Shown piece by piece: positions 1,177-39,033 of a DNA stretch of 64,000 bases (the stretch's first letter is position 1; the number at the start of each line of letters is the position of its first letter). Made by a program: the position numbers and the translations under genes. The notes beneath the pieces are model-generated. The model worked only from the letters and a program-made list of their open reading frames with translations. It was not told the DNA's origin and did not search any database. Source of the stretch: a virus (lineage: Duplodnaviria; Caudoviricetes); IMG/VR virus record IMGVR_UViG_3300032138_000007, positions 1-64,000 of that record. One strand, given 5' to 3'.

Positions 1177-1760
1177 TGAATGATAAGTTATTAGAGTTAA
1201 AACGAAAAAAGTTACAACAACAAATACTTTACTTACGAACAGAACTTGAAGAAACCGAATGGATATTTAAAGATTGTTTAAGAGAATTTGATGTTGAGTT
1301 TAGGAAATATTTTAAAGACCCAACTGAAACAAATAAAGATGATGTAACTTCTAAACCTCCTGAATATGACATACCGGCAAATGATGTCAATATGGTTTTT
1401 AAAAAAATAGCTAAAGAAACCCACCCAGACAAACTTATCAACAAAGACATATCAGACGAGGAGTATGATGCCAAGGTTGATATGTATAAAGAGGCACAGA
1501 GGTCAGTAAAGAATAGGGATTGGTCAAAGGTAGTAGAGATAGCAAAAGAATTAGGAATAGATATTTCCGACATCAAAAATGATGATAGTGAATATTTAAG
1601 TGAGAGTGTTAAGAGATTAACAGAAAAGATTAAACAATTAAAAACAACTTATGCTTGGAAGTGGGGGAATACCCCAGACCAAGACAAAGAGATTATGAAA
1701 GGAATGATTTTACAATCTCTTGGATTACAACAAATAAAGGAGAAAGAAAATGGCAAGTAG
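1176..1760 (+). CDS. J-domain (DnaJ-like) co-chaperone protein
   Basis: FKKIAKETHPDKL with HPD motif in helical context; coiled-coil flanks. Confidence 0.8.
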   Translation: MNDKLLELKRKKLQQQILYLRTELEETEWIFKDCLREFDVEFRKYFKDPTETNKDDVTSKPPEYDIPANDVNMVFKKIAKETHPDKLINKDISDEEYDAKVDMYKEAQRSVKNRDWSKVVEIAKELGIDISDIKNDDSEYLSESVKRLTEKIKQLKTTYAWKWGNTPDQDKEIMKGMILQSLGLQQIKEKENGK

Positions 1761-1932
1761 TAAAGAACTATACAACCAGTTAAATGACTTGTGGGAAGGT
1801 TTTCAAGAGAACCATAGAGCACATGCTGAAAAAGGTAATAAAGCAGCAGGTGGTAGAGCAAGAAAACACATTGGTGAGATAAAGAAACTTGTTACTGAAT
1901 ATAGAAAAGCTTCAGTAGCAGAATCTAAATAA
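1750..1932 (+). CDS. Histone H1-like protein, Hc1 family
   Basis: EKGNKAAGGRARK..KKLVTEYRKASV matches the Hc1 family signature. Confidence 0.8.
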   Translation: MASSKELYNQLNDLWEGFQENHRAHAEKGNKAAGGRARKHIGEIKKLVTEYRKASVAESK

Positions 1933-24748: not shown

Positions 24749-25051
24749 ATGCCGTATTCAAAAGATGAATTAGCTAATCTTCCATTTTATCAGGCTCTTG
24801 TGACTAAAGATGAATCTAAATATTTAGAAATAATTGAAAGTAAAACAACAAGTGGTTTTATAAGTGGTGGTATTTTAAGAGATGCTTCATCTAAAAATAT
24901 TATTTTGTTTGAAAAAATAATTAGCGGAGAAGGAACAGACGGAACAAGTCATCCAGAAAATCATACTCTTTCATATGAAGATGGGTATTGGATATATGAA
25001 GAGAATGAAGAACTTAATAAAATAATTAAACGAGAATTTACGGAATTCTAA
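24749..25051 (+). CDS. Hypothetical structural-operon protein
   Basis: ORF coupled to the next gene. Confidence 0.65.
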   Translation: MPYSKDELANLPFYQALVTKDESKYLEIIESKTTSGFISGGILRDASSKNIILFEKIISGEGTDGTSHPENHTLSYEDGYWIYEENEELNKIIKREFTEF

Positions 25052-28000
25052 TGCCAACAAAAAAACAATTAATTAAAGATACAATAACTGGAAAATTATC
25101 AAGATTAAAGGCAAAAGATTTGCCTCTTGTTGGTATTGATGGCTTAAATGATGGTGATATAGTATCACCTTTTGGAACACTTACTACTGATATAATAGAA
25201 TATCATGTATATGATACTGATGATAATTATACAGCTTCAGGTCTAATAGAATATCCACTTCCGACTGATTTGGATGTTGGTTCTCATGTTAGAAATCTTG
25301 GATATGAACGTGGAACTTATAAAATAGTTTATAATTTTTTAAGACAAATTGGTGGTTCTCATAAAGTTGTTTTAACCAAGAAATCAGATAAAAGTATTTA
25401 TACTGGTCAATATATGGTTGAAACTAATGGTAAGATTTTAGCTTCACATTTTCCACTTCCTGATGTAGAACCAAATTTAGAAGTTCCATTAACTGATGAT
25501 AACGGAAATGAAATAGAACTTCTTGTTCAAGATGATAAGTTTTGGTTACAAGAAATATCTCCATCCCGAACAGAAATAAGACTACGACCAAATCCAGCAA
25601 TAAATGATATAGATTATTATGAACAATTTAGATTGTTGGGATATACTTGTTTATCTTATTCTGATGTAAGTGGAACTTCAGATATAACATTTGAGTCCAT
25701 AGATGGTAAAACTGCAACGATAAACAACGGAAGTATATCACTTAATCAAGCAATGGTTGGTGGAACTCTTAAAATAAGAGAAGCTTTTGTTATAGACCAC
25801 GATGAAACTCCAGAAGTAATATCAAGATATTTTCCATTAATTGAAAATACAACTTTAAATGTATCGAATAATATAGTTACCAATGGCCATTTTAGTAATG
25901 GATTAGATGTTGAAGAAAAAGGACAGAGTTCAGTAAGAAATAGTATTGTTGATAATATTGCTAATCCAGGTAATACTAAATTTGTATTAAAAACCCAATC
26001 GGTTGGTTCGGAGGATATGCAAAACAAATATCAACTTTTATTAAAAGGTATCCCTGGTGAAAATTATATAATAAGTTGTTGGGTACATTGGACTCCAGAG
26101 TGGACTAATAATAAGACATTATTTATAGGTGGTATAAATTCTCCATCGGGAGATATACATTTCAATGATGGTATAGCAGGTCAAACACAACCAAGAGCCG
26201 TTTCAGAAACAATAGAAGTAGATGGTAATTTGTGGGAAAGATATTATAAAGTTATAACAATTCCAGAGGATTCTGATGGTAATATAGATTTACAGTTTGG
26301 GCATACAAATGAAGAAACACCAGATGGATATGGTGAACGGTATATTACAAATATTCAAGTTGAACCAGGAAGTTTGGGTGGGATTCCAACTCCATATATG
26401 GAAGTTGAAAGACCTGAAGAAGTTGATGTTCCAATCTCAGGCCAAATTTCATTCATATCAGATCCTGATACTGAAACTAATCAAGTAGTTGAAGCAATCC
26501 TTACTGAAGAAGATGATGGGTTTATTGATTCGATGGTTAGTGGTGAAGGTAGAGGAAGTGGTGTTCTTACTATTAAAGATGCATATGTTGTTGATGAGGT
26601 TTTTAGTGAAGATACAGAACTAATTGTAATAGATGATATTCCATTAAAAAATCCATTAGCTACTGATATTAGAAAATATGAACGAGAGTTTCGTGTAAGT
26701 CCATATCATGGGGGTGGTACAAATAGAATTTGGATTAGAGTTGATAATACTTTTACAATAACTTCTTTTAATTCATTAAATGTTCCAACAGTTATTGGTA
26801 CTACACATGGTGTAGCGGGGGCCTATAAAGAGTCTTATACATATGCCTTACCAGATGATTTGGAAAGATTAGAAATACAAACTCGTAATAATACAAAAGG
26901 AGCTGGATTTCTTGCAAAAATAAAATGGAATGGAAGTATAATTAGAACGGGAGATGGTGAAGGTAGTTATGAAGATGAGAATGAAGATTGGAAACGAGAT
27001 CATTATGGTGATTCAGGGGAAATTGATGTTCCCGAAGTTATTTATACATCTACTAATTCTTCAGGTCCATTTGAAATTATATCAAACTCCACTAATGCAG
27101 AAGATTTAAACTGGAGTGAACAATTAGGTAAAAGTACAAAGACTGCACATAAACAATTAAGAGATTGTGATTGGGTTTGGTCAACTGAAGTAAATAATTC
27201 TCAAGATTTAGTTTGGCAATGGATACCAGAAGGTTCTGTAACCGATTTAATTTGGCAATACCCAGATCCAATTTTATATTCCGATGCAGTAAGACCAAAT
27301 GGTTGGTCAGATGGATTTAATTCATTTAATTGGGGTGGATCCGAAACAGCAAGAATTGATCAAGCAAGATGGCATAGTGGTTGGTTAGGACATCACGCTA
27401 AGTGGATTCAAGGTGAAGGTCAATTTGGTGAAACTTGTATGAAGTTTATTGATAAGAATTCAGAATTCTTATCACCAAATCACGTAAATTATCCAACAAC
27501 AGAGCCACATAGAACAGGACTTTCTTCTGCAGAACATGAAACTTTATCACATAGGTGGATGGGAATTTCACAAACATTACCACATGCAATGGTTGCTCAA
27601 GGAATTGAACCTGGTAATAAAATTACAGTTAGTTGGTGGCAAAAATCAGATACAGTAAATAAAGGTGCAATGGTTGGGTTACATCATTATAGGAAAAGTG
27701 ATGGAAATGTTACTTGGGGAACTTCCATAGGAACTCATCCAGCAACATTAGAAGAAGGTAGTTTATCAGCTGGAGAAAGAGAATTTTTCAAATATAGACC
27801 AGTTTCTAAAATTGGAGAATGGGAACAAGTAAGTTGGACTGGAGTAGTTTACGAAGATTGGGATTTGGCAAAACCAACTACTCTTTATGTTTATGGTCAT
27901 TATGGTCCAGAAGGAATTTTATGGGTAGAGAGCCCTACAATTCAATTAACAGAATCAACTACAGTAGTTAATAGAACTCCTGTCACTGCAGATTTAGTAG

Positions 28001-31000
28001 CACCAATACAATCAATAGATGGTAATAAAATAACTTTATTTAATTCATATGAAAGCTTAGCACCAGAAAATGTTGTATTAGATAATAGTGCAAATATAAG
28101 ATCGTTTACCAAATTTTCAGAATTTTATGTTGATTATACTTCATCTCTTTATAGTTCTGAACCAATATATGGTTCATTAAGAGGAGAAATAGACTCAATA
28201 GATGGAAATAATATTACTCTTGTAAACAGTTATTCTGAACTTGGTCAGGAATCAAATCACGATTTTGATAAATATTCATTAAGTGATATGCAACCATTTG
28301 GTAAATGGTTTGTTCAATATGCAGCAGATAAGAGTGAAAATTTAAGTAAGTTAATTAAGTTAGGGGCAAATGATTTTAGTCTAATAACTAATTTTAAAGT
28401 TGATCAAACTACTTATTCTGAATATCCATATTCAGTAGTTTATAAATTATATGAACCACTACCTGATGAAATTGTAGAAAAAGATTTTGTTACTGTAGTT
28501 AGGGAGATGATTCCACCGATAGAAGAAACTTGTACTTTAATCCCATTTATAGAAGAAGAAGTAAGTGAGATTGTTTTAAGGACACCAGAGTTTGCAAATA
28601 CTAACAGTCCAATAGGACCAGGAACAACAGAATATAAAAATTATACTAAGTTAACTTCCACCGATGGTGGTATAAAGGAAAGTGTAGAAAATGAAGTAAT
28701 TAGTGGTAGTTTAAGTACTGATATTAATGTTGATTATTCTCAATTTGAAAATTTTATTCATTTTAGTTCAGCCGAACAACGACTTAGAAATTTTAAATAT
28801 AAATTAGATTTAATAGAACAATATACTGATAGGAGTGCTTCTCTTGCAGGAACAAGTAGCGGTTCGACTGGAAAACTTCGTATAAAAGCTTCACCAGGAA
28901 CAGGTGCATATTTAAATGTATCAGCTTCAGATGCATATAATCCATCTTTTCAACCAGTAAGTGGATCTTTGGTTCAAATACAATCTTGGGAACAGAAACG
29001 TAGAGATACTATAAATTCTTTTGATAAATTTGAAAAATATATGTTTAATAATAGTTCATCTTATTCAAGTGAATCTATTCAGGTATTCAACGATAACGCA
29101 TGGCCTAAAGAGTATGGTGGAGATACTTATTCAAGTCCATATGTTCTTTACAGAACTTCACAATCAGCAGCAACAACTTGGTACGCAGACCAATTAATTT
29201 CTGCATCTACATATGACAGGTCAAATAAACATAGATTAAAAGGTCATCTTCCAATGTTTGTTCAAGATGATGATGAAAATAACGTATTCTTAAAATTTGT
29301 AGATATGATTGGTCATCATTTTGATGATATGTGGATATTCATTAAAAGTATGACAGATGTTCATGATAAACGAGATAAATTAACAGAAGGTATAGCAAAA
29401 GATTTATTAAAACCAGTAGCACAATCACTTGGTTGGGAAGTTCATGATGGAAAAGATTTAATATCACTTCCAAGATATATGTTTGGAATGGAACAAACTG
29501 GTTCTGAAACTCCTTGGGAATATTCTGGTACTCCTGAACGAGATATATCAAGAGAAATTTGGAGTCGTATTATAAACAATATGCCTTATTTCTTAAAAAC
29601 TAAAGGAACAGTAAGATCACTTAAAGGATTAATAAGTTGTTATGGTATACCATCGAGTATATTACGAGTTATAGAATATGGGGGACCTAAACTATCTGGA
29701 CAAACACAAGAATATTTCTTAACACGAAAATTTACAAAGGCCTTAAATTTTAAAGGATCAACAAATAATACTTATGTTCAAAATGATACTTGGGAAGCGG
29801 TTACACTTGGAGATGCCCCAACAAGTAGACATCCAGATACAGTAGAATTTAGATTTAGAGCGGCAAGTGGTTCGAATCAAGTATTAGTAAGACGAGGTGA
29901 TGATTGGGCAATTAGATTAAAAGATAATGATGCATCAGATAATCGTGGTTATGTATCTTTTATGTTGTCTGGTTCTGATGGAGAATATAAGGAAGTATCA
30001 TCTTCTGAATTTCCTGTATATGATAATGAATTTTGGTCTGTAATGTTGACAAGAACCATGAGTGGTTCATTAAAAAGTTTTGTATCAAGTGATGCATCTA
30101 ATTTAGATGTTGATTATACTTTATATACTAAGAAGTATGATGCTGGTAGAAGTAAAATTATATATGAATCTCAAAATACTTTGACAATAAGTGGTTCATT
30201 TGCAGCATCAGCTTCATATAATTCATCATATACAGGAAGTTCGGATACAATTACATTAGGTGGTCCTGAACATGCAACCTTTGGAGAATCATTAAGTGGT
30301 TCTATGATGGAATATAGAAATTGGACAACACCACTCAATGTAACTTCATTTGATAATCATGTAGCAGCTCCAATAGCATTTGATGGTAATACACCATCTG
30401 CATCTTATTTAGATTTAGTTACTCGATATTCATTTGACGATGATAAAGATTTAAGTGTTTCTTATAATCAATGGTTTCGAGATGCGTCAGCAGATCAATC
30501 TTTTACATCATCAGCCGTTCCGCACAATTATACAAGTGTAATGGGTGATCATTTTTCATCCGTAGTAGATGAAACAAAGATGAAAGTTCCAAATTTGGGA
30601 CCAAGTGGTAGGTCATCAAGAAAAGTAAGAATTGAAGCAGATGAACTAATTGACAAAGTTGGTAGTCCAGCATTACAATTTGGAAAAAGTATAACAGTAC
30701 CTGCCTATGATAAAGCTCCAATAGATTCCAATAAACTTGGTATATTTTTCTCACCATCTGCAGCAATAGATGAAGATATTATATTATCAATGCCTAATCT
30801 TGATTTTGACCAATTCATTGGTGATCCTCGTGACCAATATAAAGAACAATATACGGGATTAGTAGAGGCTAGAAATTTATATTGGCAAAAATATTCAGGA
30901 CCTAATAATTTTTGGGATTATTTGAGATTGATAAAATATTATGATAGTTCTTTGTATAGACAATTAAAATCATTAGTTCCTGCACGTGCAAATGCAACTA

Positions 31001-32001
31001 TTGGTATATTAATTGAACCTACTATTCTTGAACGAGATAAGATTATAACAGGAAAAGAACCTACTGCTACTCCCCACCATCATTTTTCAGAAATTGATAT
31101 TCATACTACTTATGTTTCTGAAAGTGCAGAATATCAAGTATATGAAGATAGGGTGAATTGGTCATCACCATTTGGTATTGATAAACATAAAATGGAAACT
31201 GGTTCATATATTTCATCATCTGCACAATTTGATACTTTTGAGGCAGATTTAACTTTTACTGATCCATTTAGAGTTAATTTTTATACTATGGAGAGTGGCT
31301 CGAGTGAACAGTATGGATCGGGTGCACATAAATCTGGAAGTGGAAAATTTGGTTTTGTATCAGCATCAGCCACCGATATAACTCCGTGGGGACTTGAAAC
31401 AATGCCTTTAAATTTTTATGATCCACATAGATTGAATAATAGAACACAAGATAGTGGTTCTGGTGTAGCTATAACAGCAGCTTTTTCTTCATATGAGGCA
31501 CCGAGTGATACAATAAGTGCAAATGCATCAGGAACGGGTTCATTTGTAATTAAACATATTTTAGAAAGACCAGCATTATATAATATTGGTGATATAGATA
31601 CAAGTGGGTGGTATGGTCAAGATTATTATAATTCAACTATACAAGCAGGAAGTGTTAAAACTATATTTGAAGAAGTAGTTCAACCACGAATAGAAACAAA
31701 TATAATGTCACAATTTAATGATGAAATAGAGTATTATTATTCATCTTCATTAAGTGCTTCAATGCATAAAGCCTACTCATCAAGTTTTGTTCGTAGTGAT
31801 TTGGATAGTAGATGGGATGAGGCAATAGGAACAGATAGATTATTTTATACAGGATGTGTTCAAACTGATAGTTCTACAGTAACAGATCCAGAAGAAAGGT
31901 GGTTAGATGATACACCCGCAGTAGATATAACTATAGTATCACCTACAAAATTAGTAACAACTGATAAAACCACTACTAAGATGGATGTAAAGAATAAATA
32001 A
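25051..32001 (+). CDS. Large baseplate wedge protein (gp7-like) with carbohydrate-binding-like insertions
   Basis: LPMFV..FLKF..; FLKTKGTVRSLKGLISCYG tail-P2-I-like motif; NGHFSNG/YIISCWV CBM-like segments. Confidence 0.65.
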   Translation: MPTKKQLIKDTITGKLSRLKAKDLPLVGIDGLNDGDIVSPFGTLTTDIIEYHVYDTDDNYTASGLIEYPLPTDLDVGSHVRNLGYERGTYKIVYNFLRQIGGSHKVVLTKKSDKSIYTGQYMVETNGKILASHFPLPDVEPNLEVPLTDDNGNEIELLVQDDKFWLQEISPSRTEIRLRPNPAINDIDYYEQFRLLGYTCLSYSDVSGTSDITFESIDGKTATINNGSISLNQAMVGGTLKIREAFVIDHDETPEVISRYFPLIENTTLNVSNNIVTNGHFSNGLDVEEKGQSSVRNSIVDNIANPGNTKFVLKTQSVGSEDMQNKYQLLLKGIPGENYIISCWVHWTPEWTNNKTLFIGGINSPSGDIHFNDGIAGQTQPRAVSETIEVDGNLWERYYKVITIPEDSDGNIDLQFGHTNEETPDGYGERYITNIQVEPGSLGGIPTPYMEVERPEEVDVPISGQISFISDPDTETNQVVEAILTEEDDGFIDSMVSGEGRGSGVLTIKDAYVVDEVFSEDTELIVIDDIPLKNPLATDIRKYEREFRVSPYHGGGTNRIWIRVDNTFTITSFNSLNVPTVIGTTHGVAGAYKESYTYALPDDLERLEIQTRNNTKGAGFLAKIKWNGSIIRTGDGEGSYEDENEDWKRDHYGDSGEIDVPEVIYTSTNSSGPFEIISNSTNAEDLNWSEQLGKSTKTAHKQLRDCDWVWSTEVNNSQDLVWQWIPEGSVTDLIWQYPDPILYSDAVRPNGWSDGFNSFNWGGSETARIDQARWHSGWLGHHAKWIQGEGQFGETCMKFIDKNSEFLSPNHVNYPTTEPHRTGLSSAEHETLSHRWMGISQTLPHAMVAQGIEPGNKITVSWWQKSDTVNKGAMVGLHHYRKSDGNVTWGTSIGTHPATLEEGSLSAGEREFFKYRPVSKIGEWEQVSWTGVVYEDWDLAKPTTLYVYGHYGPEGILWVESPTIQLTESTTVVNRTPVTADLVAPIQSIDGNKITLFNSYESLAPENVVLDNSANIRSFTKFSEFYVDYTSSLYSSEPIYGSLRGEIDSIDGNNITLVNSYSELGQESNHDFDKYSLSDMQPFGKWFVQYAADKSENLSKLIKLGANDFSLITNFKVDQTTYSEYPYSVVYKLYEPLPDEIVEKDFVTVVREMIPPIEETCTLIPFIEEEVSEIVLRTPEFANTNSPIGPGTTEYKNYTKLTSTDGGIKESVENEVISGSLSTDINVDYSQFENFIHFSSAEQRLRNFKYKLDLIEQYTDRSASLAGTSSGSTGKLRIKASPGTGAYLNVSASDAYNPSFQPVSGSLVQIQSWEQKRRDTINSFDKFEKYMFNNSSSYSSESIQVFNDNAWPKEYGGDTYSSPYVLYRTSQSAATTWYADQLISASTYDRSNKHRLKGHLPMFVQDDDENNVFLKFVDMIGHHFDDMWIFIKSMTDVHDKRDKLTEGIAKDLLKPVAQSLGWEVHDGKDLISLPRYMFGMEQTGSETPWEYSGTPERDISREIWSRIINNMPYFLKTKGTVRSLKGLISCYGIPSSILRVIEYGGPKLSGQTQEYFLTRKFTKALNFKGSTNNTYVQNDTWEAVTLGDAPTSRHPDTVEFRFRAASGSNQVLVRRGDDWAIRLKDNDASDNRGYVSFMLSGSDGEYKEVSSSEFPVYDNEFWSVMLTRTMSGSLKSFVSSDASNLDVDYTLYTKKYDAGRSKIIYESQNTLTISGSFAASASYNSSYTGSSDTITLGGPEHATFGESLSGSMMEYRNWTTPLNVTSFDNHVAAPIAFDGNTPSASYLDLVTRYSFDDDKDLSVSYNQWFRDASADQSFTSSAVPHNYTSVMGDHFSSVVDETKMKVPNLGPSGRSSRKVRIEADELIDKVGSPALQFGKSITVPAYDKAPIDSNKLGIFFSPSAAIDEDIILSMPNLDFDQFIGDPRDQYKEQYTGLVEARNLYWQKYSGPNNFWDYLRLIKYYDSSLYRQLKSLVPARANATIGILIEPTILERDKIITGKEPTATPHHHFSEIDIHTTYVSESAEYQVYEDRVNWSSPFGIDKHKMETGSYISSSAQFDTFEADLTFTDPFRVNFYTMESGSSEQYGSGAHKSGSGKFGFVSASATDITPWGLETMPLNFYDPHRLNNRTQDSGSGVAITAAFSSYEAPSDTISANASGTGSFVIKHILERPALYNIGDIDTSGWYGQDYYNSTIQAGSVKTIFEEVVQPRIETNIMSQFNDEIEYYYSSSLSASMHKAYSSSFVRSDLDSRWDEAIGTDRLFYTGCVQTDSSTVTDPEERWLDDTPAVDITIVSPTKLVTTDKTTTKMDVKNK

Positions 32002-32101: not shown

Positions 32102-32974
32102 ATGGGATATTTAAATAATTCAACCAGAATATTAGACGCTATTTTGACAAAGAAAGGTCGTGAAATTTTGTCAAGTGGTGGAGATTTTGAAGTCACTAAA
32201 TTCGCACTTGGTGACGATGAGGTTGATTACGCACTATGGGATACAACCCATACACAAGGAACGGATTATTATGGTGCAGTGATTGATAATCTACCAGCAC
32301 TTGAACCGTTTAATGATCCTTCAGAAATTATGAAGTATAAACTTGTGACAAGACAAGAAGGAACTTCAGCGATGGTTAAATTAAATAATTATACTAATCC
32401 TGGAACTAATACAATAACTTTAAATTGGTATAGTGATATTACTTCAAATTCTGGAATATCAGTTAATCCAAGTTCACCAGATCCAGATAATCCAAATCCA
32501 CCAGAAAATCCAACTAATGCAGTTAGTTTACTTGGTGGGGGTGATAATGCATCTCAAACTTTACATATTTCACGGGCACAAAATAGTACAGATGATGGAT
32601 ATGGAAATTTAGATTTTGATAGTTTGGAACAGGAACCCTATACTGTAACGGTATTGGATTCAAGTGTTGCAATTTTAGCACCTGAACCATCTGGTGGTCA
32701 AATTGATAGAGAGGGTGATATTCAAGTATTAACTCCACAAGATTTATTGTGGGTCCCCTTTGTTGATAATGTACAACATATATCACAAACACTTAAAGGA
32801 TGTAGCCAAAGTGATGCGGAAGTTGGACTTAGATTTCCGTTTTCGAGTGGTCAAAAAGGATTAAGACTTTATCCTAAAAAAATATCATCTTCCACAGAAA
32901 CTTCAGTTATAGTAACTGGGGATTTATCAGGAGCAGTATTAGAATTTAACGTAACAGTTACATATAATTCATAA
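32102..32974 (+). CDS. Structural protein, paralog A1
   Basis: MGYL..DAILTKKGRE..TKFALGDDEVDY. Confidence 0.75.
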   Translation: MGYLNNSTRILDAILTKKGREILSSGGDFEVTKFALGDDEVDYALWDTTHTQGTDYYGAVIDNLPALEPFNDPSEIMKYKLVTRQEGTSAMVKLNNYTNPGTNTITLNWYSDITSNSGISVNPSSPDPDNPNPPENPTNAVSLLGGGDNASQTLHISRAQNSTDDGYGNLDFDSLEQEPYTVTVLDSSVAILAPEPSGGQIDREGDIQVLTPQDLLWVPFVDNVQHISQTLKGCSQSDAEVGLRFPFSSGQKGLRLYPKKISSSTETSVIVTGDLSGAVLEFNVTVTYNS

Positions 32975-32989
32975 GTAATAAGGTAAATA

Positions 32990-33679
32990 ATGGGATTTAT
33001 AAATAATACTTCATATATTTTAAATGCAGTATTAACCAAAAAGGGTAAACAATATCTTGCAAAAAGTGATGGGAGTTTTAATATAACAAAATTCGCATTA
33101 TCAGATGATGAGATAGATTATACTTTATGGGATATTGCACATCCAAAAGGGACTGATTATTATGGTGCTGTATTAGAATCTACACCAATGTTAGAACCAT
33201 GTGTTGATCCTGAAGTTGTGATGAAATATAAATTAATTAATATGCCAGTAGGAACTAAGGCATTACCATATATTGGAAATATGACACCAACTTCGTTTCT
33301 TGGTTCAAATTCACTTAATTCTTCTCTTGTTGGTAATCCACCAAATTGGGCGTTTAATACTGTTGTTCTTTCACCAGAGACACATGGTGCAAGCGAAGCT
33401 TTTTTAAATGAAGATTATAGTTTTTTAGTATTAAATAGAAATGTAGTTGATATAGGAATCGGTGAAGGAAGTACGGTAGATTATGATGTAGGTGCTGTAT
33501 ATAACGAAGAATCTGGTAGATTGAGTAAAAAAGTAGTTTCAAGAGTAGCAACTTTTAAAACAGGAATTGGTACGGTTGCAACATCAAGAGAAACATCAAT
33601 TATTATAACTGGTCAAATGTCAGGAGCAATCTATGTTTTACCAATAAAAGTTGATTATTTGGATAACACACCACAATAA
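32990..33679 (+). CDS. Structural protein, paralog A2
   Basis: MGFI..AVLTKKGKQ..TKFALSDDEIDY. Confidence 0.75.
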   Translation: MGFINNTSYILNAVLTKKGKQYLAKSDGSFNITKFALSDDEIDYTLWDIAHPKGTDYYGAVLESTPMLEPCVDPEVVMKYKLINMPVGTKALPYIGNMTPTSFLGSNSLNSSLVGNPPNWAFNTVVLSPETHGASEAFLNEDYSFLVLNRNVVDIGIGEGSTVDYDVGAVYNEESGRLSKKVVSRVATFKTGIGTVATSRETSIIITGQMSGAIYVLPIKVDYLDNTPQ

Positions 33680-33690
33680 AGAGATAAATT

Positions 33691-34080
33691 ATGGGATTTA
33701 TAAATAAAGATACATTAACTATAGATGCGATACTTACAAACAAAGGTAGAGATTATTTAAGAAAAGCAGTATTTGGTGAAAACCAAAATGGAGAACACGT
33801 TATTACAAAATTTGCATTATCGGATGATGAGATAGATTATTCTTTGTGGGATGTAACACCGAGTGGTTCAAATTTTGTAAAACCATATGGTCAAGTGATT
33901 GATAACCAACCACTAACTGAACCCAATGTTAATTGGAAAACTCCAACTGATAGTGAAATTATGAGACATTTTATATTTAAACATAAAATTGGTGAGACAA
34001 ATGAGGGTAATACCGATTCTTCTACTCCACCACCACCATCAGGTCCAATGGGTCCAAATAGTTCAAATGGAGTGATATAA
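33691..34080 (+). CDS. Structural protein, paralog A3 (N-terminal half)
   Basis: MGFI..DAILTNKGRD..TKFALSDDEIDY. Confidence 0.75.
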   Translation: MGFINKDTLTIDAILTNKGRDYLRKAVFGENQNGEHVITKFALSDDEIDYSLWDVTPSGSNFVKPYGQVIDNQPLTEPNVNWKTPTDSEIMRHFIFKHKIGETNEGNTDSSTPPPPSGPMGPNSSNGVI

Positions 34081-34358
34081 TGATATTACAACATACTCAA
34101 ACAGGACAAGATGGAATAGGACAAAAGAAAGTTTTATCTGGATTATATTCAGTTCGATTAAAAGCTAAAAAAGTTTTATCAGTAAAAAATACTACTTTAA
34201 AGATTGAAGGAGAATCAAGTGGGGCAAGTTGGACAATTGGAGTAGTAGTTAATAGTGGAGATACAGTTTTAGAGTATTATCCACCACCAGTAAATCCAAA
34301 TCCACCAAGTGGACCAGTAGCAGCATTTAGTTGGGTACTTGACGAATTACAGGCATAA
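34080..34358 (+). CDS. C-terminal-half homolog of family A ending in a PKD first-strand-like motif
   Basis: TTLKIEGESSGASWTIGVVV aligns with A1/A2 C-termini; ends PVAAFSW. Confidence 0.65.
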   Translation: MILQHTQTGQDGIGQKKVLSGLYSVRLKAKKVLSVKNTTLKIEGESSGASWTIGVVVNSGDTVLEYYPPPVNPNPPSGPVAAFSWVLDELQA

Positions 34359-34367
34359 GATAAATAT

Positions 34368-34940
34368 ATGGGATATTTAGATAAAACGACACAAACTGTA
34401 ACAGCACATTTTACCAAAAGAGGTAGAGAACTTTTAGCGGACGCTTTGGCAGGTAATACAAGTGGTGATTATATAATTACACAATTTGCACTTGGAGATG
34501 ATGAGGTTGATTATTCTTTATACGATGAAAGTTTATCACCTAATTTACGAGGTAAAGTTATTGAGAATATGCCACTTCTTGAGTCTTTTATTAACGAAGA
34601 AGAACTTATGAATTATTTTTTAAAAGATGCTCCTCCTGTAATGTTACAAAGTCAGTTATCAAATATACCTGCACAGATTACATTGGAAGGACTTGGAGAT
34701 GTAATTGATATAAGTCCAATAACAGAAAATTTTACTTTTTTTAACGAAGAAACACAAGAGAATCAAGATTGGGAAACATATACTTTTACTCTTGGTCATG
34801 ATAATATGGTGGAAATGTATGATATAAATAATCCGCCTACAGCAGAATTTACATATGAAATAGATGTTCAAGGTTCTCCACCAGAAGGTACACCACCAAA
34901 TGCAAATTTTAATTATCAAAATACAAATTTAATATTTTAA
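34368..34940 (+). CDS. Structural protein, paralog A4, ending in two PKD first-strand-like motifs
   Basis: MGYL..AHFTKRGRE..TQFALGDDEVDY; PTAEFTY and PNANFNY. Confidence 0.75.
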   Translation: MGYLDKTTQTVTAHFTKRGRELLADALAGNTSGDYIITQFALGDDEVDYSLYDESLSPNLRGKVIENMPLLESFINEEELMNYFLKDAPPVMLQSQLSNIPAQITLEGLGDVIDISPITENFTFFNEETQENQDWETYTFTLGHDNMVEMYDINNPPTAEFTYEIDVQGSPPEGTPPNANFNYQNTNLIF

Positions 34941-34952
34941 AGGAGATATAAA

Positions 34953-35330
34953 ATGCCATTACCAACAATGAATTACGCACCATTGACAATCAGTTTTACT
35001 GATACATCTGCAGGTGATGGGCTGGCGTATTTGTGGGATTTCGGAGATGGTTCAACTTCAACGTTACGAAACCCAACACATACATTTCAAGCGGGAGCTT
35101 GGAGTGTTACTTTAACTGTAGAAAATGAAAATGGTTCAGACCAAACTTCTGCAACAATAGTTGCTATACCACAAGGTGCAGGTGGTGGAAACGGAAAAGG
35201 TGGGAATGGTAAAGGTGGAAACGGAAAAGGTGGAAATGGTAAAGGTGGAAACGGAAAAGGTGGGAATGGTAAAGGTGGAAATGGTAAAGGTGGAAATGGT
35301 AAAGGTGGAAACGGAAAAGGGGGATTTTAA
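34953..35330 (+). CDS. PKD-domain protein lacking strand A, with (GGNGK)9 tail
   Basis: APLTISFTDTS..YLWDFGDGSTST..NPTHTF..VTLTV; AGGAG RBS. Confidence 0.85.
   Translation: MPLPTMNYAPLTISFTDTSAGDGLAYLWDFGDGSTSTLRNPTHTFQAGAWSVTLTVENENGSDQTSATIVAIPQGAGGGNGKGGNGKGGNGKGGNGKGGNGKGGNGKGGNGKGGNGKGGNGKGGF
35184..35318 (+). repeat. 15-bp coding tandem repeat x9 (GGNGK)
   Basis: ggtggRaaYggWaaa units varying only at synonymous positions. Confidence 0.95.
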
Positions 35331-35752
35331 TCGAACCCAAAGCAAATTTTACTTTTGAACAACCATATAAACCAAATTTATCATCTAATAAGAATATTAA
35401 AAATAAGTTATTTAGTAGTGATAAAATAGAAGTTAAAAAATCCACTTTGGAAGGATATGGAGTTTTTGCAAAAGAAGATATTAAAAGTGGAGAAGTATTA
35501 GAGGAATGTCATTATATAGAAGTTGGTAGTGACGGTGATGTTGATAGATATAAATTTAATTGGCCAAGAGGAACAGAAAACCCTGAAAAAGTTGTGTTAC
35601 CACTTGGATTTGGAAGTATTTACAATACAGTTATTAATGAAGATGAAAAGACTGTAGATTGGAAAACTGATTTAAATAATGATATTTTTATATTTTATAC
35701 TATAAAAAATATAAAAAAAGATGAGGAAATGTTAACGTATTATGATTATTGA
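35330..35752 (+). CDS. SET-domain protein (true start upstream of TTG 35447; non-canonical start or frameshift)
   Basis: Frame open from 35303; KIEVKKSTLEGYGVFAKEDI..GE, GFGSIYN, IKKDEEMLTYY; canonical NHS motif reads NTV. Confidence 0.75.
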   Translation: MEPKANFTFEQPYKPNLSSNKNIKNKLFSSDKIEVKKSTLEGYGVFAKEDIKSGEVLEECHYIEVGSDGDVDRYKFNWPRGTENPEKVVLPLGFGSIYNTVINEDEKTVDWKTDLNNDIFIFYTIKNIKKDEEMLTYYDY

Positions 35753-35797: not shown

Positions 35798-36850
35798 ATG
35801 AGTAGTGAAACAAGTTTTTTCACCACGTTAAGTGGTGAAGATAAAAGAACTAATATACCGAGTACTATATCTTCTCCAGTATGGACGGGAGGAACAGCAA
35901 CGCTAACTTCCTTCTATTCTGGATCTACACAAAGTGGTAGTAGTGGAAATTATTATTATGATGTGTTTGATAAAGTTGGAAGTGATACTACACGGGTTGT
36001 TCAATTCGCAGTAGCTTATGGCCATTACGATGGAAGTGGTTCGTTATCTACTTCTGCGGGAAATAATCCATCTAAGGCAGTATATCGTCAGTTTAGAAAT
36101 GTATGTATTAGGAATGCTGGAAGTACAGATAAATTTAAATTTCCTGAAACTAATTCAACTGAATTTAAAGATGTTTATGTAATAAATGTAAACAGAGCAC
36201 GATATAGAGAAAAGATAGATCCAGGCAATTGGGAACTTCATTTGAGTGGAAGTTCACCAACCGCACCAAACCATCCAATAAAATTAATTGACGATAGTGG
36301 AGCAACTTCAGATTCATCTGTAAAAGCATCACAGAGAGTTTTTAATATAGTGAGTGGTTCAATTGGAACAGGGGCAACGGATATAAATACACAAGCTTCA
36401 GCAGAACCTATAGCATCTGGTTCATATGGATTGTTTTATCCTGAGTTAGGACTTATAATATTAAATGCAACTCGATTAGATATAGCATCTGATTTAAATC
36501 TTGGTACATCTGAAACTGCTAATACAAATATGAATAACTCATTGAAGTTATTTCGGGCAATACAAAGTGGTAGTAAATTTCAAGCACGTAGAGAAGAACA
36601 GATAAAATCATCTCACTTTTTCTGTAGGGTAAAATCTGATGAATATAATTTTAGTCAGAATCCAACCTACTTTCAAGGTACAAATGCAGAATTAACTAAT
36701 ACTACTTTTATTACTGATCCTAAGGCATATATAACTACAGTTGGTCTTTATAATGAACAAAATGAGTTATTGGCAGTTGCAAAGTTAAGTCAACCTTTAT
36801 TGAAATCGAGAGATAGAGAAGCGGTAATTAAAGTACGATTAGACTTTTAG
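35798..36850 (+). CDS. Baseplate/tail structural protein, paralog B1
   Basis: C-terminal YITTVGLYNEQNELLAVAKLSQP..VRLDF. Confidence 0.75.
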   Translation: MSSETSFFTTLSGEDKRTNIPSTISSPVWTGGTATLTSFYSGSTQSGSSGNYYYDVFDKVGSDTTRVVQFAVAYGHYDGSGSLSTSAGNNPSKAVYRQFRNVCIRNAGSTDKFKFPETNSTEFKDVYVINVNRARYREKIDPGNWELHLSGSSPTAPNHPIKLIDDSGATSDSSVKASQRVFNIVSGSIGTGATDINTQASAEPIASGSYGLFYPELGLIILNATRLDIASDLNLGTSETANTNMNNSLKLFRAIQSGSKFQARREEQIKSSHFFCRVKSDEYNFSQNPTYFQGTNAELTNTTFITDPKAYITTVGLYNEQNELLAVAKLSQPLLKSRDREAVIKVRLDF

Positions 36851-36865
36851 GAAAGGAGATAATAA

Positions 36866-37900
36866 ATGTCTTTTAAAGTCTTTAATCCAAAAGAAAAAGT
36901 CGAGAATTTATATAGTACCGTTTCTGAACCTATGTGGTCTGATGATTCAGGAACTTTGACTACATTTTTTACTGGATCTGTGCAGAACTCTAATAGTGGT
37001 AAATACTATAATGATATATATAAAACTACCGACCAAACCTTAGATGTTCAGTTTGCAGTAACATATGGTCATATGCTCGGTTCTGGATCTGAAGGTTCAA
37101 CAGCGACAGGAACAACAAATCCAACCAAAGGAATATATTCTCAATTAAGACAGGTTTTATTACCTGCTCAAACTACTCGGTTTAATTTTAATGGTGGTGG
37201 AACTGGAAGTTATGCAAGTGATGATGTTTATGCAATAGCTGTAAATAGAGCACGATATAGAGAAAAGATGGATCCAGGAAACTGGGAATTACACTTAACA
37301 AGTGGAAGTAACACCATTAATTTAATTGATGATAGTGAAGCAAATACAAATCCACTACTTGGAAATGCAAAACGAGAGTTTAATGTAGTTAGTGGTTCAG
37401 TAGCAAATGGAGTTTATAGAACTGCAACTTCCGAAGCAACAGCTACCAGTTCTGGTTCGTTGGGTTTATTTTATCCTGAACAGGGAATGATTATTTTAAA
37501 TCCAAACGCTTTAGATTCTGGACCAGATTTTTCATCTTTTGGATATATACAAGCAGTTGTAACAAGTTCTGCTACTAACAATTACAATCATAGAAAATTA
37601 TTTCATTCTATAAAGAGTGGTTCTTATTTTGCAGCACGGAGAGAAGAACAAAAACGTAGTTCGTTTTATTTTTGTAATATACTTGGTAGAGAGTTTAATC
37701 ACAGTCAAAATCCTTCATTTTTTACTGGGTCACATGCAGTTTTAACTCATAATTCATTTATCACAGAACCTAGCACTTATCTAACAACCGTTGGTCTTTA
37801 TAATGATAATAATGAATTATTGGCAGTGGCTAAATTATCTAAACCATTCAAAAAAGATCCAAATACTGAAGCACTTATCAAAGTAAGACTTGATTATTAA
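36866..37900 (+). CDS. Baseplate/tail structural protein, paralog B2
   Basis: Collinear with B1 (NRARYREKxDPGNWELHL; VAKLSKP..VRLDY). Confidence 0.75.
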   Translation: MSFKVFNPKEKVENLYSTVSEPMWSDDSGTLTTFFTGSVQNSNSGKYYNDIYKTTDQTLDVQFAVTYGHMLGSGSEGSTATGTTNPTKGIYSQLRQVLLPAQTTRFNFNGGGTGSYASDDVYAIAVNRARYREKMDPGNWELHLTSGSNTINLIDDSEANTNPLLGNAKREFNVVSGSVANGVYRTATSEATATSSGSLGLFYPEQGMIILNPNALDSGPDFSSFGYIQAVVTSSATNNYNHRKLFHSIKSGSYFAARREEQKRSSFYFCNILGREFNHSQNPSFFTGSHAVLTHNSFITEPSTYLTTVGLYNDNNELLAVAKLSKPFKKDPNTEALIKVRLDY

Positions 37901-37911
37901 AGGAGATTCCC

Positions 37912-39033
37912 ATGTTTAAGGATATATCTCCAGATGATAGATCAATAAAAGAATTTAAAACTTATAAACAATTCACTTTTACAAATTCTGATACTGGAAG
38001 TGGTGTTTTTGGTCTTGAAGGTATAAGTGGAAGTGCACATTATTTCCTAACGGGTTCGGCGGCATCTCAAAGTTTTGGGGTTTTCAACGAAGCTTCTAAA
38101 AGTTTCGGACATTCTTGGGATACTTGGTATAGTTGTGGTACTTTCTTTAAACTTCCTTTATATTTTCAAATAAATAATTCGTATTATGAGTATGATAAAG
38201 TTCCTAATAAGAAGTCTAATATAACGAGATTTCCAGTATACACTCCGAGTAGGTGGGAAAGAAAATGGCCACATGGTAGAGAAGCTTCAGATTGGGGTAC
38301 TATAGTTCCACGAGAATTACATGATACAGTAAATGTTATAACAATTCCACAACAATTTTTTGGTGAAGAAATAAAACCACTTTCAGTTAAAATTCTTGAC
38401 GATAGCGGGGCAACAACTTTAGATATAAGAGATGATGGACACGGACAACTTTATGATTATTTTTATTCTTCAAGTTTTGCAGCAGGAACACCGAGTGGTA
38501 CACCACGAACAGGAGGTTCTATAGGAAATGTTTTTTATGAACACGGAATCATTACAGTTACAGATACAGGTTCAAGATATACGAGTGTTGGACTTGGAAC
38601 TGGTGGTGATGGTTGGTCAGTAAGATTTCAAGCAACAAAAACTTCTTATGAATATCAATATCAATGTAACATAGCAGAATATCAATTTACTGGCACTACA
38701 AATCCAAGTGCAGTTATTGGTAGAAGTGGTAGTATTGCTGTTCCAGCAGGTTCCAGATATAATTATAATGGAAAGTTTGAGGCGGACGAGGCACAATATG
38801 AAAGTGCTTTTGATTTAGTAATGCCACCAGCAAGTAGATCATACGATACGTCATATAGTGGAGATGGTGGATTGTATCATAATTTCACAACACATTCAGA
38901 ATTTGGGACATACGTCACAAATATAGGTTTATATAACGATACAAATGAGTTATTGGCCATCGCAAAACTATCAAATCCAATTAAAAATGATAAAGATTTA
39001 CCAATTTCATTTTTAGTTCGTTTTGATTCGTAA
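37912..39033 (+). CDS. Baseplate/tail structural protein, paralog B3
   Basis: YVTNIGLYNDTNELLAIAKLSNP..VRFDS. Confidence 0.75.
   Translation: MFKDISPDDRSIKEFKTYKQFTFTNSDTGSGVFGLEGISGSAHYFLTGSAASQSFGVFNEASKSFGHSWDTWYSCGTFFKLPLYFQINNSYYEYDKVPNKKSNITRFPVYTPSRWERKWPHGREASDWGTIVPRELHDTVNVITIPQQFFGEEIKPLSVKILDDSGATTLDIRDDGHGQLYDYFYSSSFAAGTPSGTPRTGGSIGNVFYEHGIITVTDTGSRYTSVGLGTGGDGWSVRFQATKTSYEYQYQCNIAEYQFTGTTNPSAVIGRSGSIAVPAGSRYNYNGKFEADEAQYESAFDLVMPPASRSYDTSYSGDGGLYHNFTTHSEFGTYVTNIGLYNDTNELLAIAKLSNPIKNDKDLPISFLVRFDS

What the first reader, a model, noticed from the sequence alone, without database searches (positions are those of the whole stretch)
34953..35752. SET-domain gene directly behind a histone-H4-tail-like (GKGG)n repeat protein inside the virion operon
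Seen: nine GGNGK units giving nine GKGG motifs, with only synonymous variation, followed immediately by a SET-domain ORF that carries a candidate PKD docking strand. Known: SET domains are protein-lysine methyltransferases; the H4 tail (GRGKGGKGLGKGG) carries lysines in the same GKGG context. Inference: an enzyme-substrate pair that methylates a virion-surface Lys/Gly tail, for example for protease shielding or adhesion tuning. Caveats: the NHS motif reads NTV, so it may be an inactive binder, and the phage Hc1-like protein (1750) is an alternative substrate because chlamydial SET has been reported to act on Hc1.
Basis: partly seen in the sequence, partly recalled or inferred. Interest (0 to 1): 0.8.

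Follow-up and report, generated by a model that had tools for sequence, protein, structure and literature searches.

The report
Phage SET methyltransferase behind Gly-Lys tail
A marine phage's baseplate gene cluster holds a small surface-type protein ending in nine Gly-Gly-Asn-Gly-Lys repeats, followed by a mobile virus-type SET lysine methyltransferase gene; the two tend to occur together in related phages, but here the enzyme gene has lost its normal start.

Summary
ORF 34953-35330 is a PKD domain plus nine identical GGNGK units; the only DNA variation is at three third-codon positions. A SET domain follows. It is above Pfam's cut-off, vSET-like by profile and by fold, and its NHS motif reads NTV.

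The enzyme-substrate reading is only partly supported. Among 63 distinct related marine-phage loci, SET is present in 6. Five of those 6 have GK-repeat tails, against 5 of 57 loci without SET (Fisher 2e-4). This amounts to only about four independent events. One SET+ locus has a lysine-free tail, five GK tails lack SET, and 67 other phage SET loci have no G/K-rich neighbour.

The SET gene moves between lineages as a cassette: 95-100% nucleotide identity against 60-85% in the flanks. It normally starts at ATG codons in the +1 frame of the repeat. In this window a 14-nt deletion, also seen in an independent contig, puts SET in the other frame. No ATG, GTG or TTG then precedes its first strand.

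The PKD domain lacks strand A. Strand-A-like motifs sit at the C-terminus of the upstream gene and at the SET N-terminus.

Verdict: a new variant of known kinds, moderately interesting, function untested.

The parts
34368..34940 (+). Gene upstream of the PKD-tail gene. It is one of four paralogues in the window that share an N-terminal 'MGYL/MGFI' domain. Its C-terminus carries two PKD strand-A-like motifs.
   Evidence: ORF list. Alignment of 8 orthologues shows conserved NNPPxAxFxF...PPxANFNYQ just before the stop. No Pfam or PHROG match.
34833..34868 (+). Motif 1, PPTAEFTYEIDV. In the read-through model it occupies the strand-A position of the downstream PKD domain.
   Evidence: In the AF2 model residues 161-167 form a strand with block-mean pLDDT 59-70. 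Complete PKD domains, for example 4l9d with 77 of 82 residues aligned at Z 11.1, align to model residues 155-269.
34893..34919 (+). Motif 2, PPNANFNYQ, the last conserved element before the stop codon. It is the closest match to the SET N-terminal motif.
   Evidence: It is not structured in the model.
34953..35330 (+). PKD-tail gene: a PKD domain lacking strand A (34977-35159), a (GGNGK)9 tail, then GGF and a stop.
   Evidence: Orthologues in 63 loci have hypervariable tails.
35184..35324 (+). Tandem repeat of 9.4 x 15 nt encoding GGNGK. Its +1 frame reads VETEK/VEMVK/VGMVK with five ATG codons. Its +2 frame has TAA stops.
35161..35358 (+). ORF in the +1 frame that runs through the repeat and stops at 35358. 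It is the orphaned equivalent of the leader from which SET is read in relatives.
   Evidence: In L150, L004, L046, L026 and L022 this frame continues into SET.
35304..35330 (+). Junction between repeat and SET. A 14-nt deletion relative to L150 removed the old tail-gene stop and shifted SET from the +1 to the +2 frame. It includes a G5 run at 35319-35323 and the new TAA stop at 35328-35330.
   Evidence: DNA alignment. The junction is identical in the independent contig L192.
35303..35752 (+). SET reading frame, open from 35303. The first canonical start is TTG 35447, inside the domain. Non-canonical candidates are ATC 35330 (behind AAGGGGG), ATT 35396 (aligns with Met1 of short-form homologues) and TTG 35447.
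35336..35368 (+). N-terminal extension motif PKANFTFEQPY (pattern P-x-x-x-F-x-hydrophobic-x-x-P-Y). It is found only in SETs that sit behind PKD-tail genes.
   Evidence: only the P0004 cluster covers query residues 3-14. The model shows no secondary structure over residues 1-28; block-mean pLDDT is 67 and 60 for residues 1-20.
35426..35749 (+). SET core of vSET type: strand 1 IEVKKS, GYG, YN(TV), and E133...Y138. It ends two residues after the catalytic-position Tyr.
1750..1932 (+).
   Evidence: PF07432 1e-18. Co-occurrence with SET is not supported.

Best explanation
Shown. The region holds two linked accessory genes in the baseplate/fibre module of an uncultured marine myovirus.

Gene 1 (34953-35330) encodes a PKD Ig-like domain that lacks its first strand, followed by a flexible low-complexity tail. 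In relatives the tail is hypervariable: polyQ, NQ, GGS/GGY, PPG, GK, sometimes with a Hint domain.

Gene 2 is a minimal vSET-type SET domain. It moves between related phages as a cassette. It normally starts at ATG codons that the AAT-GGN codons of the repeat create in the +1 frame. In this clade only, it carries an N-terminal extension with a PKD-strand-like motif.

Inferred. The PKD domain is completed in trans by a strand at the C-terminus of the upstream protein. The SET N-terminal motif may use the same kind of contact to sit next to the tail.

Most likely function (inferred, about 40%). SET transfers methyl groups from SAM to the lysines of the neighbouring GK tail during virion assembly, changing the charge, hydration or stickiness of a surface-exposed linker.

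In this window a 14-nt deletion has cut SET off from its ATG leader. Here the enzyme is probably made poorly, from a non-canonical or internal start, or not at all.
For: SET identity: Pfam above cut-off. A family profile hits vSET 1n3j at 2e-26 and S. pombe Set7 5h6z at 6e-27. The AF2 model has mean pLDDT 89, and Foldseek finds 3kma_A at 2e-8 with target TM-score 0.83.

Catalytic-type residues across 86 homologues: G42 in 83 and G44 in 84, N99 in 86, E133 in 86, Y138 in 85.

Purifying selection in the clade: dN/dS 0.26-0.49 for diverged pairs.

Linkage: SET overlaps the tail gene in the +1 frame by 122-197 nt in L150, L004, L046, L026 and L022.

Co-occurrence: GK-repeat tails in 5 of 6 SET+ loci against 5 of 57 SET- loci, Fisher 2e-4. 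The SET- sisters of L150 have GGN tails without lysine.

The N-terminal motif occurs only in the PKD-linked SETs. All 9 lysines of the protein are in the tail.

Split PKD: the profile starts at position 20, the split is conserved in 69 loci, and the model places the upstream motif as strand A.
Against: There are only about 4 independent SET gain or loss events. The phylogenetically paired test cannot reach significance.

L114 has SET behind a lysine-free tail, and five GK-rich or K-rich tails have no SET. None of 67 other phage SET loci has a G/K-rich neighbour.

The association can arise from cassette co-transfer. It can also arise because the GK repeat DNA supplies SET's ATG codons and Shine-Dalgarno-like purine runs.

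The window's SET has no canonical start for the full domain, yet the GGNGK peptide is perfectly kept.

The His of NHS is Thr; His is the commonest residue there (42 of 86) but Ser, Thr, Cys and Ala are frequent in the family. The protein ends 2 residues after Y138, whereas the median homologue has about 13 more.

The strand-complementation model comes from an artificial read-through fusion with overall pLDDT 51. No SET-PKD complex could be modelled.
Confidence: 0.4

Rival explanations
1. SET is a mobile accessory gene whose substrate is something else: a host protein, another virion protein, or a nucleoid protein such as Hc1. It sits behind the PKD-tail gene because that junction is a recombination and insertion hot spot. 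Its link to GK repeats is hitch-hiking, plus use of the repeat's +1-frame ATG codons and purine-rich Shine-Dalgarno-like sequence as an expression platform.
For: The SET region is 95-100% identical among WIN, L150 and L004 while the flanks are 60-85% identical. For WIN and L150 the high identity starts inside the repeat.

SET homologues are widespread in other phage contexts: 904 representatives at E<=1e-3 and 102 confirmed IMG/VR loci. Neighbours include tail fibres, a lysozyme and a NUDIX gene, with no G/K-rich ORF nearby.

The same junction also hosts other variable inserts: a Hint domain and a small 'MLSAKQIPKDG' gene. L114 has SET with a lysine-free tail.
Against: It does not explain why the N-terminal extension with a PKD-strand-like motif is confined to the PKD-linked clade. 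It does not explain why SET- sister lineages of L150 have lost lysine from otherwise similar GGN tails. Hc1 specifically is present in only 3 of 7 near-complete SET+ phage genomes and also in SET- relatives.
Confidence: 0.35
2. In this particular phage lineage the SET gene is a disabled remnant. The 14-nt deletion removed its translational start, so it is not made, or is made only as an N-terminally cut, inactive fragment from TTG 35447.
For: No ATG, GTG or TTG lies in the SET frame between the stop at 35300-35302 and TTG 35447. That TTG would delete strand 1 (IEVKKS). No Shine-Dalgarno sequence precedes TTG 35447 or ATT 35396.

All other extension-bearing SETs keep the +1 frame. The same broken junction is fixed in an independent contig. 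dN/dS against the closest intact relatives is higher (0.56-0.68) than for distant pairs.
Against: The reading frame is fully intact for 149 codons with every conserved residue in place. A strong Shine-Dalgarno-like AAGGGGG lies 6 nt before ATC 35330, and the same arrangement is kept in L150. ATT 35396 aligns exactly with Met1 of the short-form homologues, and L114 appears to use ATT or TTG there behind AGAGGA. The dN/dS values for close pairs rest on very few changes.
Confidence: 0.3
3. SET is a non-catalytic lysine-tail or SAM binder (a pseudo-enzyme), because the NHS His is replaced and the C-terminal segment is missing.
For: The protein has T100 in place of His and ends at Y140.
Against: Position 100 is Ser, Thr, Cys or Ala in 42 of 86 family members, while N99, Y98, E133, Y138 and the GxG motif stay (nearly) invariant. 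That pattern is expected for a working SAM pocket and catalytic Tyr. Four family members end at the same point.
Confidence: 0.1
4. A PKD-(GGNGK)9-SET fusion protein is made by a -1 ribosomal frameshift, or by slippage on the G5 run, just before the TAA at 35328.
For: The SET frame is -1 relative to the tail gene and open across its last 8 codons. One extra G in the G5 run would fuse the two frames.
Against: There is no X XXY YYZ heptamer; only a single-tRNA GGA-to-GGG slip is possible (read by eye). Relatives have the opposite (+1) frame relation, so no frameshift signal is conserved. The G5 and T4 runs are too short for transcriptional slippage.
Confidence: 0.05

Closest known systems
vSET (PBCV-1 A612L, PDB 1n3j/3kma), the minimal viral SET histone H3K27 methyltransferase
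   Same: It is a stand-alone SET domain of about 110-120 aa encoded by a virus. It is among the best sequence-profile hits and is the best fold hit. It shares strand 1, the GxG motif, G-x-G-x-I-(Y/F)-N, and E...Y with the catalytic-position Tyr.
   Different: The host here is a bacterium with no histones. The gene sits in a phage baseplate/fibre module. His of NHS is Thr. There is no C-terminal segment after the Tyr. There is an extra N-terminal extension with a PxxxFx(hydrophobic)xxPY motif. The start lies in the +1 frame of the preceding gene.
S. pombe Set7 (5h6z) and Plasmodium PFL0690c (4rz0), small eukaryotic SET proteins
   Same: They belong to the same minimal-SET subfamily by profile (6e-27 and 1e-24) and by fold.
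   Different: They are cellular eukaryotic chromatin enzymes and share no genomic context with this gene.
Chlamydial cpnSET acting on Hc1/Hc2 (Murata 2007, as reviewed in PMC3980110)
   Same: It is a prokaryote-borne SET reported to methylate a lysine-rich bacterial histone-like protein. This phage also encodes an Hc1 domain protein.
   Different: No linkage was found. The Hc1 gene lies 33 kb away, and only 3 of 7 near-complete SET+ phage genomes have Hc1. NUE, the C. trachomatis homologue, did not methylate Hc1 (PMC3980110).
Surface-protein lysine methylation in bacteria (Salmonella FliB on flagellin; Rickettsia PKMT1/2 on OmpB); my own knowledge, not tested here
   Same: These show the idea proposed for the GK tail: many lysines of an exposed structural protein are methylated to change adhesion or protect the protein.
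   Different: Those enzymes are not SET domains and the substrates are folded proteins. Nothing comparable is documented for a phage virion in the library searched.
Donor-strand complementation of incomplete Ig-like folds (chaperone-usher pili), and Ig-like/PKD decoration domains on phage structural proteins (Fraser et al. 2006); my own knowledge
   Same: An Ig-like domain lacks one edge strand, and a matching strand sits on the terminus of another polypeptide. PKD/Ig domains are common accessory modules on tailed-phage virions.
   Different: Here the missing strand is the first (A) strand. The donor is the C-terminus of the preceding gene product. The arrangement looks like a conserved gene fission. 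The support is an AF2 read-through model only. No paper combining PKD domain, donor strand and phage was found.

Membership tests
SET domain (PF00856), vSET-like minimal subfamily | Sequence match above the curated Pfam threshold | tested here: met
   32.2 bits against a cut-off of 22.4; 30.9 bits in the six-frame search.
SET domain (PF00856), vSET-like minimal subfamily | SET fold resembling solved minimal SET domains | tested here: met
   The AF2 model has mean pLDDT 89. Foldseek finds vSET 3kma_A at E 2e-8 with target TM-score 0.83, then 4rz0 and 5h6z. The pseudoknot itself was not inspected because no coordinates were available.
SET domain (PF00856), vSET-like minimal subfamily | N-terminal GxG SAM-binding motif | tested here: met
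   G42-Y-G44; Gly in 83 and 84 of 86 homologues.
SET domain (PF00856), vSET-like minimal subfamily | NHS (Asn-His-Ser) motif | tested here: not met
   The motif reads N99-T100-V101. Asn is invariant (86 of 86). Position 100 is His in 42, Ser in 26, Thr in 9, Cys in 4 and Ala in 3 of 86. The Asn is kept and the His is not.
SET domain (PF00856), vSET-like minimal subfamily | C-terminal E-x-x-x-x-Y motif with the catalytic Tyr | tested here: met
   E133 in 86 of 86 and Y138 in 85 of 86. Y138 aligns with the Tyr of the ISYG motif of vSET.
SET domain (PF00856), vSET-like minimal subfamily | Complete gene with a usable start codon covering strand 1 | tested here: not met
   No ATG, GTG or TTG lies between the in-frame stop at 35300-35302 and TTG 35447. 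The cause is a 14-nt deletion relative to L150.
SET domain (PF00856), vSET-like minimal subfamily | SAM binding and lysine methyl transfer | not testable with these tools
   This needs a biochemical assay.
PKD domain (PF18911/PF00801) | Sequence match above the curated threshold | tested here: met
   PKD_4 at 61.7 bits against 27; PKD at 49.1 bits against 23.5.
PKD domain (PF18911/PF00801) | Whole beta-sandwich, including strand A, on one polypeptide | tested here: not met
   The match begins at profile position 20 of 85, at residue 9. The ORF starts 8 residues before strand B. The same holds across 69 related loci.
Donor-strand complementation (Ig fold completed in trans) | A strand from another polypeptide fills the vacant position | tested here: inconclusive
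   In an AF2 model of the stop-read-through fusion, upstream residues about 155-167 align with strand A of solved PKD domains (Z 11-12, 77-87 residues aligned). The chain is artificial, the strand's pLDDT is 59-70 and the overall pLDDT is 51.
Enzyme-substrate gene pair (SET + GK tail) | Conserved co-occurrence across relatives beyond shared ancestry | tested here: inconclusive
   5 of 6 against 5 of 57, Fisher 2e-4. Only 4 independent contrasts exist: about 2 go the same way, 0 the opposite way and about 2 show no change.
Programmed -1 frameshift fusion | Slippery X XXY YYZ heptamer and a frame relation conserved in relatives | tested here: not met
   There is no heptamer at 35313-35330. Relatives have SET in +1, not -1.
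Histone H4 tail-like substrate | Lysines in a GKGG context | tested here: met
   There are nine GKGG motifs. That such lysines are SET targets was not tested. The nearest solved enzymes are described as H3 methyltransferases.

The most novel reading that the evidence does not exclude
A modular strand-tag system on a phage baseplate. An Ig-like PKD domain deliberately lacks one strand, and short PxAxFxF-type peptides on other proteins plug into it. Those proteins are the upstream adaptor, a second small protein, and the SET enzyme. The phage would thereby dock a lysine methyltransferase next to a flexible Gly-Asn-Lys tail and methylate it. That would be the first virion-tethered, phage-encoded protein-lysine methylation system, with the GK repeat doubling as substrate and as the enzyme gene's translation start.
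Probability: 0.15. Interest if true: 0.8.

Novelty: new variant of a known kind. Interest (0 to 1): 0.55.

Why it matters
SET-domain methyltransferases are known from eukaryotes, giant viruses and a few bacterial pathogens. I found no description of them in tailed phages in the library searched. Yet small vSET-like genes are common in marine phage contigs.

This locus offers the most concrete substrate hypothesis for that family: a lysine-bearing low-complexity tail encoded by the overlapping upstream gene. The hypothesis is directly testable with a peptide assay.

The locus also shows a conserved gene fission through a PKD domain. If the halves reassemble by strand complementation, that would be a simple way for phages to bolt accessory proteins onto the virion. 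The hypervariable tails (polyQ, GK, PPG, Hint-containing) mark a fast-evolving surface element in abundant ocean myoviruses.

Tried and rejected
1. Assembly error at the G5 run. Rejected: the independent contig L192 has the identical junction.

2. A -1 frameshift fusion. Rejected: no slippery heptamer, and relatives have the opposite frame relation.

3. Stop-codon read-through or an alternative genetic code joining the upstream gene to the PKD gene. Rejected: 38 of 69 loci are in frame, but most of those have 2-3 stops of mixed type between the genes. The TGA=W gene calls behind P0003 and P0016 appear to come from the gene caller's choice of code.

4. Hc1 as SET's partner. Co-occurrence is 5 of 14 large SET+ records and 3 of 7 near-complete ones. 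Hc1 is also present in SET- relatives.

5. G/K-rich neighbours in other phage SET loci: 0 of 67.

6. SET elsewhere on the contigs of SET- GK-tail loci: none found, but those contigs are only 5-12% complete, so this says little.

7. Extending the Pfam PKD alignment across the stop into the upstream ORF. It reached only profile position 8, and only in L022, so it is not decisive.

8. PHROG and Pfam searches on the neighbouring genes, and an Atlas search on the upstream (34368) gene alone: no functional names.

9. Fused forms of SET with PKD or the upstream family. None appear among the top 150 representatives. Fusions are to a second SET, 2OG-oxygenase-like, class I methyltransferase or glycosyltransferase-like regions, judged by eye from the sequences.

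10. Earlier notes of this scan: none.

11. Literature on phage SET or PKD donor strands: nothing relevant.

12. A SET-PKD complex model could not be run.
Full report
**Context**

The window is the first 64 kb of a 93-kb IMG/VR virus record, estimated about 47% complete. The genes around the finding are syntenic with the baseplate/tail-fibre module of Flavobacterium phage immuto and Microcystis phage Mel-JY01. A baseplate wedge gene (phrog_6) lies upstream at 21279-23219. So 'virion operon' is a fair description, although the small genes themselves have no named family.

**The observation**

ORF 34953-35330 (125 aa) has a PKD domain (PF18911 7e-17) that matches the profile only from position 20 of 85. 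The first strand is therefore missing.

After the PKD domain come nine identical GGNGK units and then GGF-stop. Tandem Repeats Finder reports 9.4 copies of 15 nt. The units differ at three positions only, all third-codon and synonymous. In the +1 frame the same changes are non-synonymous, so the GGNGK frame is the one under selection. All nine lysines of the protein are in the tail.

The SET domain that follows is above Pfam's threshold. A profile of 86 homologues hits S. pombe Set7 (6e-27), PBCV-1 vSET (2e-26) and Plasmodium PFL0690c (1e-24). The AF2 model has mean pLDDT 89 and is closest to vSET, with Foldseek E 2e-8 and target TM-score 0.83.

Across the family, G42 (83 of 86), G44 (84), N99 (86), E133 (86) and Y138 (85) are invariant or nearly so. 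The His of NHS is Thr here. In the family that position is His in 42, Ser in 26, Thr in 9, Cys in 4 and Ala in 3 of 86. The protein ends two residues after Y138.

**The SET start problem**

The SET frame is open only from 35303. It contains no ATG, GTG or TTG until TTG 35447, which would delete the first strand, IEVKKS.

In five related loci (L150, L004, L046, L026, L022) the SET frame is +1 relative to the tail gene and overlaps it by 122-197 nt. It begins at ATG codons that the AAT-GGN (Asn-Gly) codons of the repeat create in that frame.

Aligned with L150, the window has a 14-nt deletion. It removed the old tail-gene stop and moved SET into the +2 frame. The ATG-bearing +1 ORF (35161-35358) is left orphaned.

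An independent assembly (L192) has exactly the same junction, so this is a real variant and not an assembly error.

The remaining start options are all non-canonical or internal:
- ATC 35330, six nt behind AAGGGGG, an arrangement also present in L150.
- ATT 35396, which aligns with Met1 of the short-form homologues.
- TTG 35447.

A -1 frameshift fusion is unlikely because there is no slippery heptamer and the frame relation is not conserved.

**Relatives and the co-occurrence test**

I used the conserved upstream gene as bait in IMG/VR and in metagenome contigs. This gave 63 distinct loci in which the interval from the upstream gene through the PKD-tail gene to the next gene is complete.

The tail is hypervariable. 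Counts from the 63 loci are 14 Q-rich, 10 GK-rich, 8 G-rich without lysine, 6 with a Hint domain, 1 P-rich and 24 mixed. Half end with Phe within the last three residues.

SET is present in 6 loci. GK-repeat tails occur in 5 of these 6 and in 5 of 57 SET- loci, Fisher 2e-4.

On a tree of the flanking proteins SET changes state 4 times. Only 4 independent contrasts exist. In about 2 the K trait changes the same way and in none the opposite way, which cannot reach significance.

One contrast is telling: L150 (GGNGK tail, SET+) against its sisters L161 and L162 (GGN tails without lysine, SET-).

The counter-examples are:
- L114: SET+, with a PPG tail, no lysine and no N-terminal extension.
- L009, L011, L013, L045 and L141: GK-rich or K-rich tails without SET.

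In 67 other phage SET loci no G/K-rich ORF lies within 2.5 kb.

**SET is a mobile cassette**

Between the window, L150 and L004, the SET region is 95-100% identical at the nucleotide level while the flanking structural genes are 60-85% identical. For the window and L150 the high identity begins inside the repeat.

dN/dS is 0.26-0.49 for diverged SET pairs, indicating purifying selection in the clade. It is 0.56-0.68 between the window and its closest intact relatives, based on few changes.

The SET-GK association therefore has three possible sources that I cannot separate by computation:
- An enzyme-substrate relationship.
- Co-transfer of the repeat and SET as one cassette.
- Use of the purine-rich, ATG-containing repeat DNA as SET's translation start.

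**The strand motifs and the split PKD domain**

The upstream gene (34368-34940) ends with two conserved motifs, PPxAxFxF and PPxANFNYQ, just before its stop codon. The PKD ORF begins eight residues before strand B. This split is present in all 69 loci examined. Of these, 38 have the two genes in the same frame, but separated by 1-3 stop codons, so this is a fission and not read-through.

I modelled the read-through translation (TAA read as Gln) with 28 aligned relatives. The PKD part had block-mean pLDDT 74-89. Upstream residues 161-167 formed a strand with pLDDT 59-70.

Complete solved PKD domains align to model residues about 155-269, for example 4l9d with 77 of 82 residues at Z 11.1 and rmsd 1.7. 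The upstream motif therefore sits where strand A should be. This is compatible with strand complementation, but it comes from an artificial single chain with overall pLDDT 51.

The SET N-terminal extension carries a similar motif, PKANFTFEQPY. Variants in other lineages are ESNFEIKIPY and KSSFELRIPY. The motif is found only in the SETs that sit behind PKD-tail genes. In the SET model the extension (residues 1-28) has no secondary structure. Whether it docks to the PKD domain could not be tested.

**The Hc1 alternative**

The 60-aa ORF at 1750-1932 is an Hc1 domain protein (1e-18). Chlamydial cpnSET has been reported to methylate Hc1 (PMC3980110). However, only 3 of 7 near-complete SET+ phage genomes carry Hc1, and SET- relatives carry it too.

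**Verdict**

The enzyme-substrate idea remains the single most attractive mechanism, at about 40%. It is supported only by linkage and a suggestive association, and it has clear counter-examples.

In this window the SET gene has lost its normal start and may be poorly expressed or decaying, at about 30%. That reading is not exclusive of the family-level function.

I rate this as a new variant of known kinds: a vSET-type SET in a phage baseplate module, overlapping a PKD-tail gene, plus a conserved split PKD domain.

Noticed in passing
window 34368-35183 (and 69 related loci): The PKD domain is split between two genes. Strand-A-like motifs end the upstream ORF, and the PKD ORF starts just before strand B. 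A third such motif (PVAAFSWV) ends ORF 34080-34358. Only one PKD domain is found in the 93-kb record.
   Followed up: partly
L160:4044-4754, also L161, L173-L177, L053, L112, L151, L159: In several relatives the low-complexity tail of the PKD protein carries a Hint/intein-like domain (PT-HINT 5e-23, Intein_splicing 2e-10). It starts Gly-Cys-Phe-Ile and ends VHN, followed by Lys or Ile rather than Cys, Ser or Thr. This suggests self-cleavage rather than splicing.
   Followed up: partly
L178:1830-2380: The Hint-like segment lies in the +1 frame relative to the PKD-tail ORF, after a GGN repeat. This could be a frameshift in the repeat, a real variant or an assembly slip.
   Followed up: no
related loci L008, L033, L119, L124, L156 etc.: The tails of the orthologous PKD proteins include uninterrupted polyQ runs of 20-40 residues, NQ repeats and GGS/GGY repeats. 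Copy number differs between near-identical contigs. The window has 9 GGNGK units where contig L192 shows 3.
   Followed up: partly
window 1750-1932: A 60-aa Hc1 histone H1-like protein (PF07432, 1e-18) is encoded by the phage. Homologues occur in 7 of 22 large phage records checked.
   Followed up: partly
window 32102-34940 and 35798-39033: There are two paralogue arrays. Four genes share an N-terminal MGYL/MGFI domain; one of them is split into ORFs 33691-34080 and 34080-34358. Three genes of about 350 aa share a C-terminal ...LLAVAKLS...VRLDF end. None has a Pfam or PHROG name.
   Followed up: no
window 25051-32001 and 48786-60569: Two giant ORFs of 2316 aa and 3927 aa. The 2316-aa ORF has no Pfam or PHROG match; the 3927-aa ORF was not searched.
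   Followed up: no
proteins P0017, P0022, P0058, P0077, P0146: Relatives of this small SET occur as tandem SET-SET proteins. By eye, others appear fused to 2OG-oxygenase-like, class I methyltransferase-like and glycosyltransferase-like regions. This hints at wider protein-modification cassettes in environmental viruses.
   Followed up: no
H1/H2: LR756501.1 692234-692551: The only match to this SET among deposited phage genomes is in a 735-kb uncultured 'huge phage' (43% identity). None of the cultured relatives has it.
   Followed up: no
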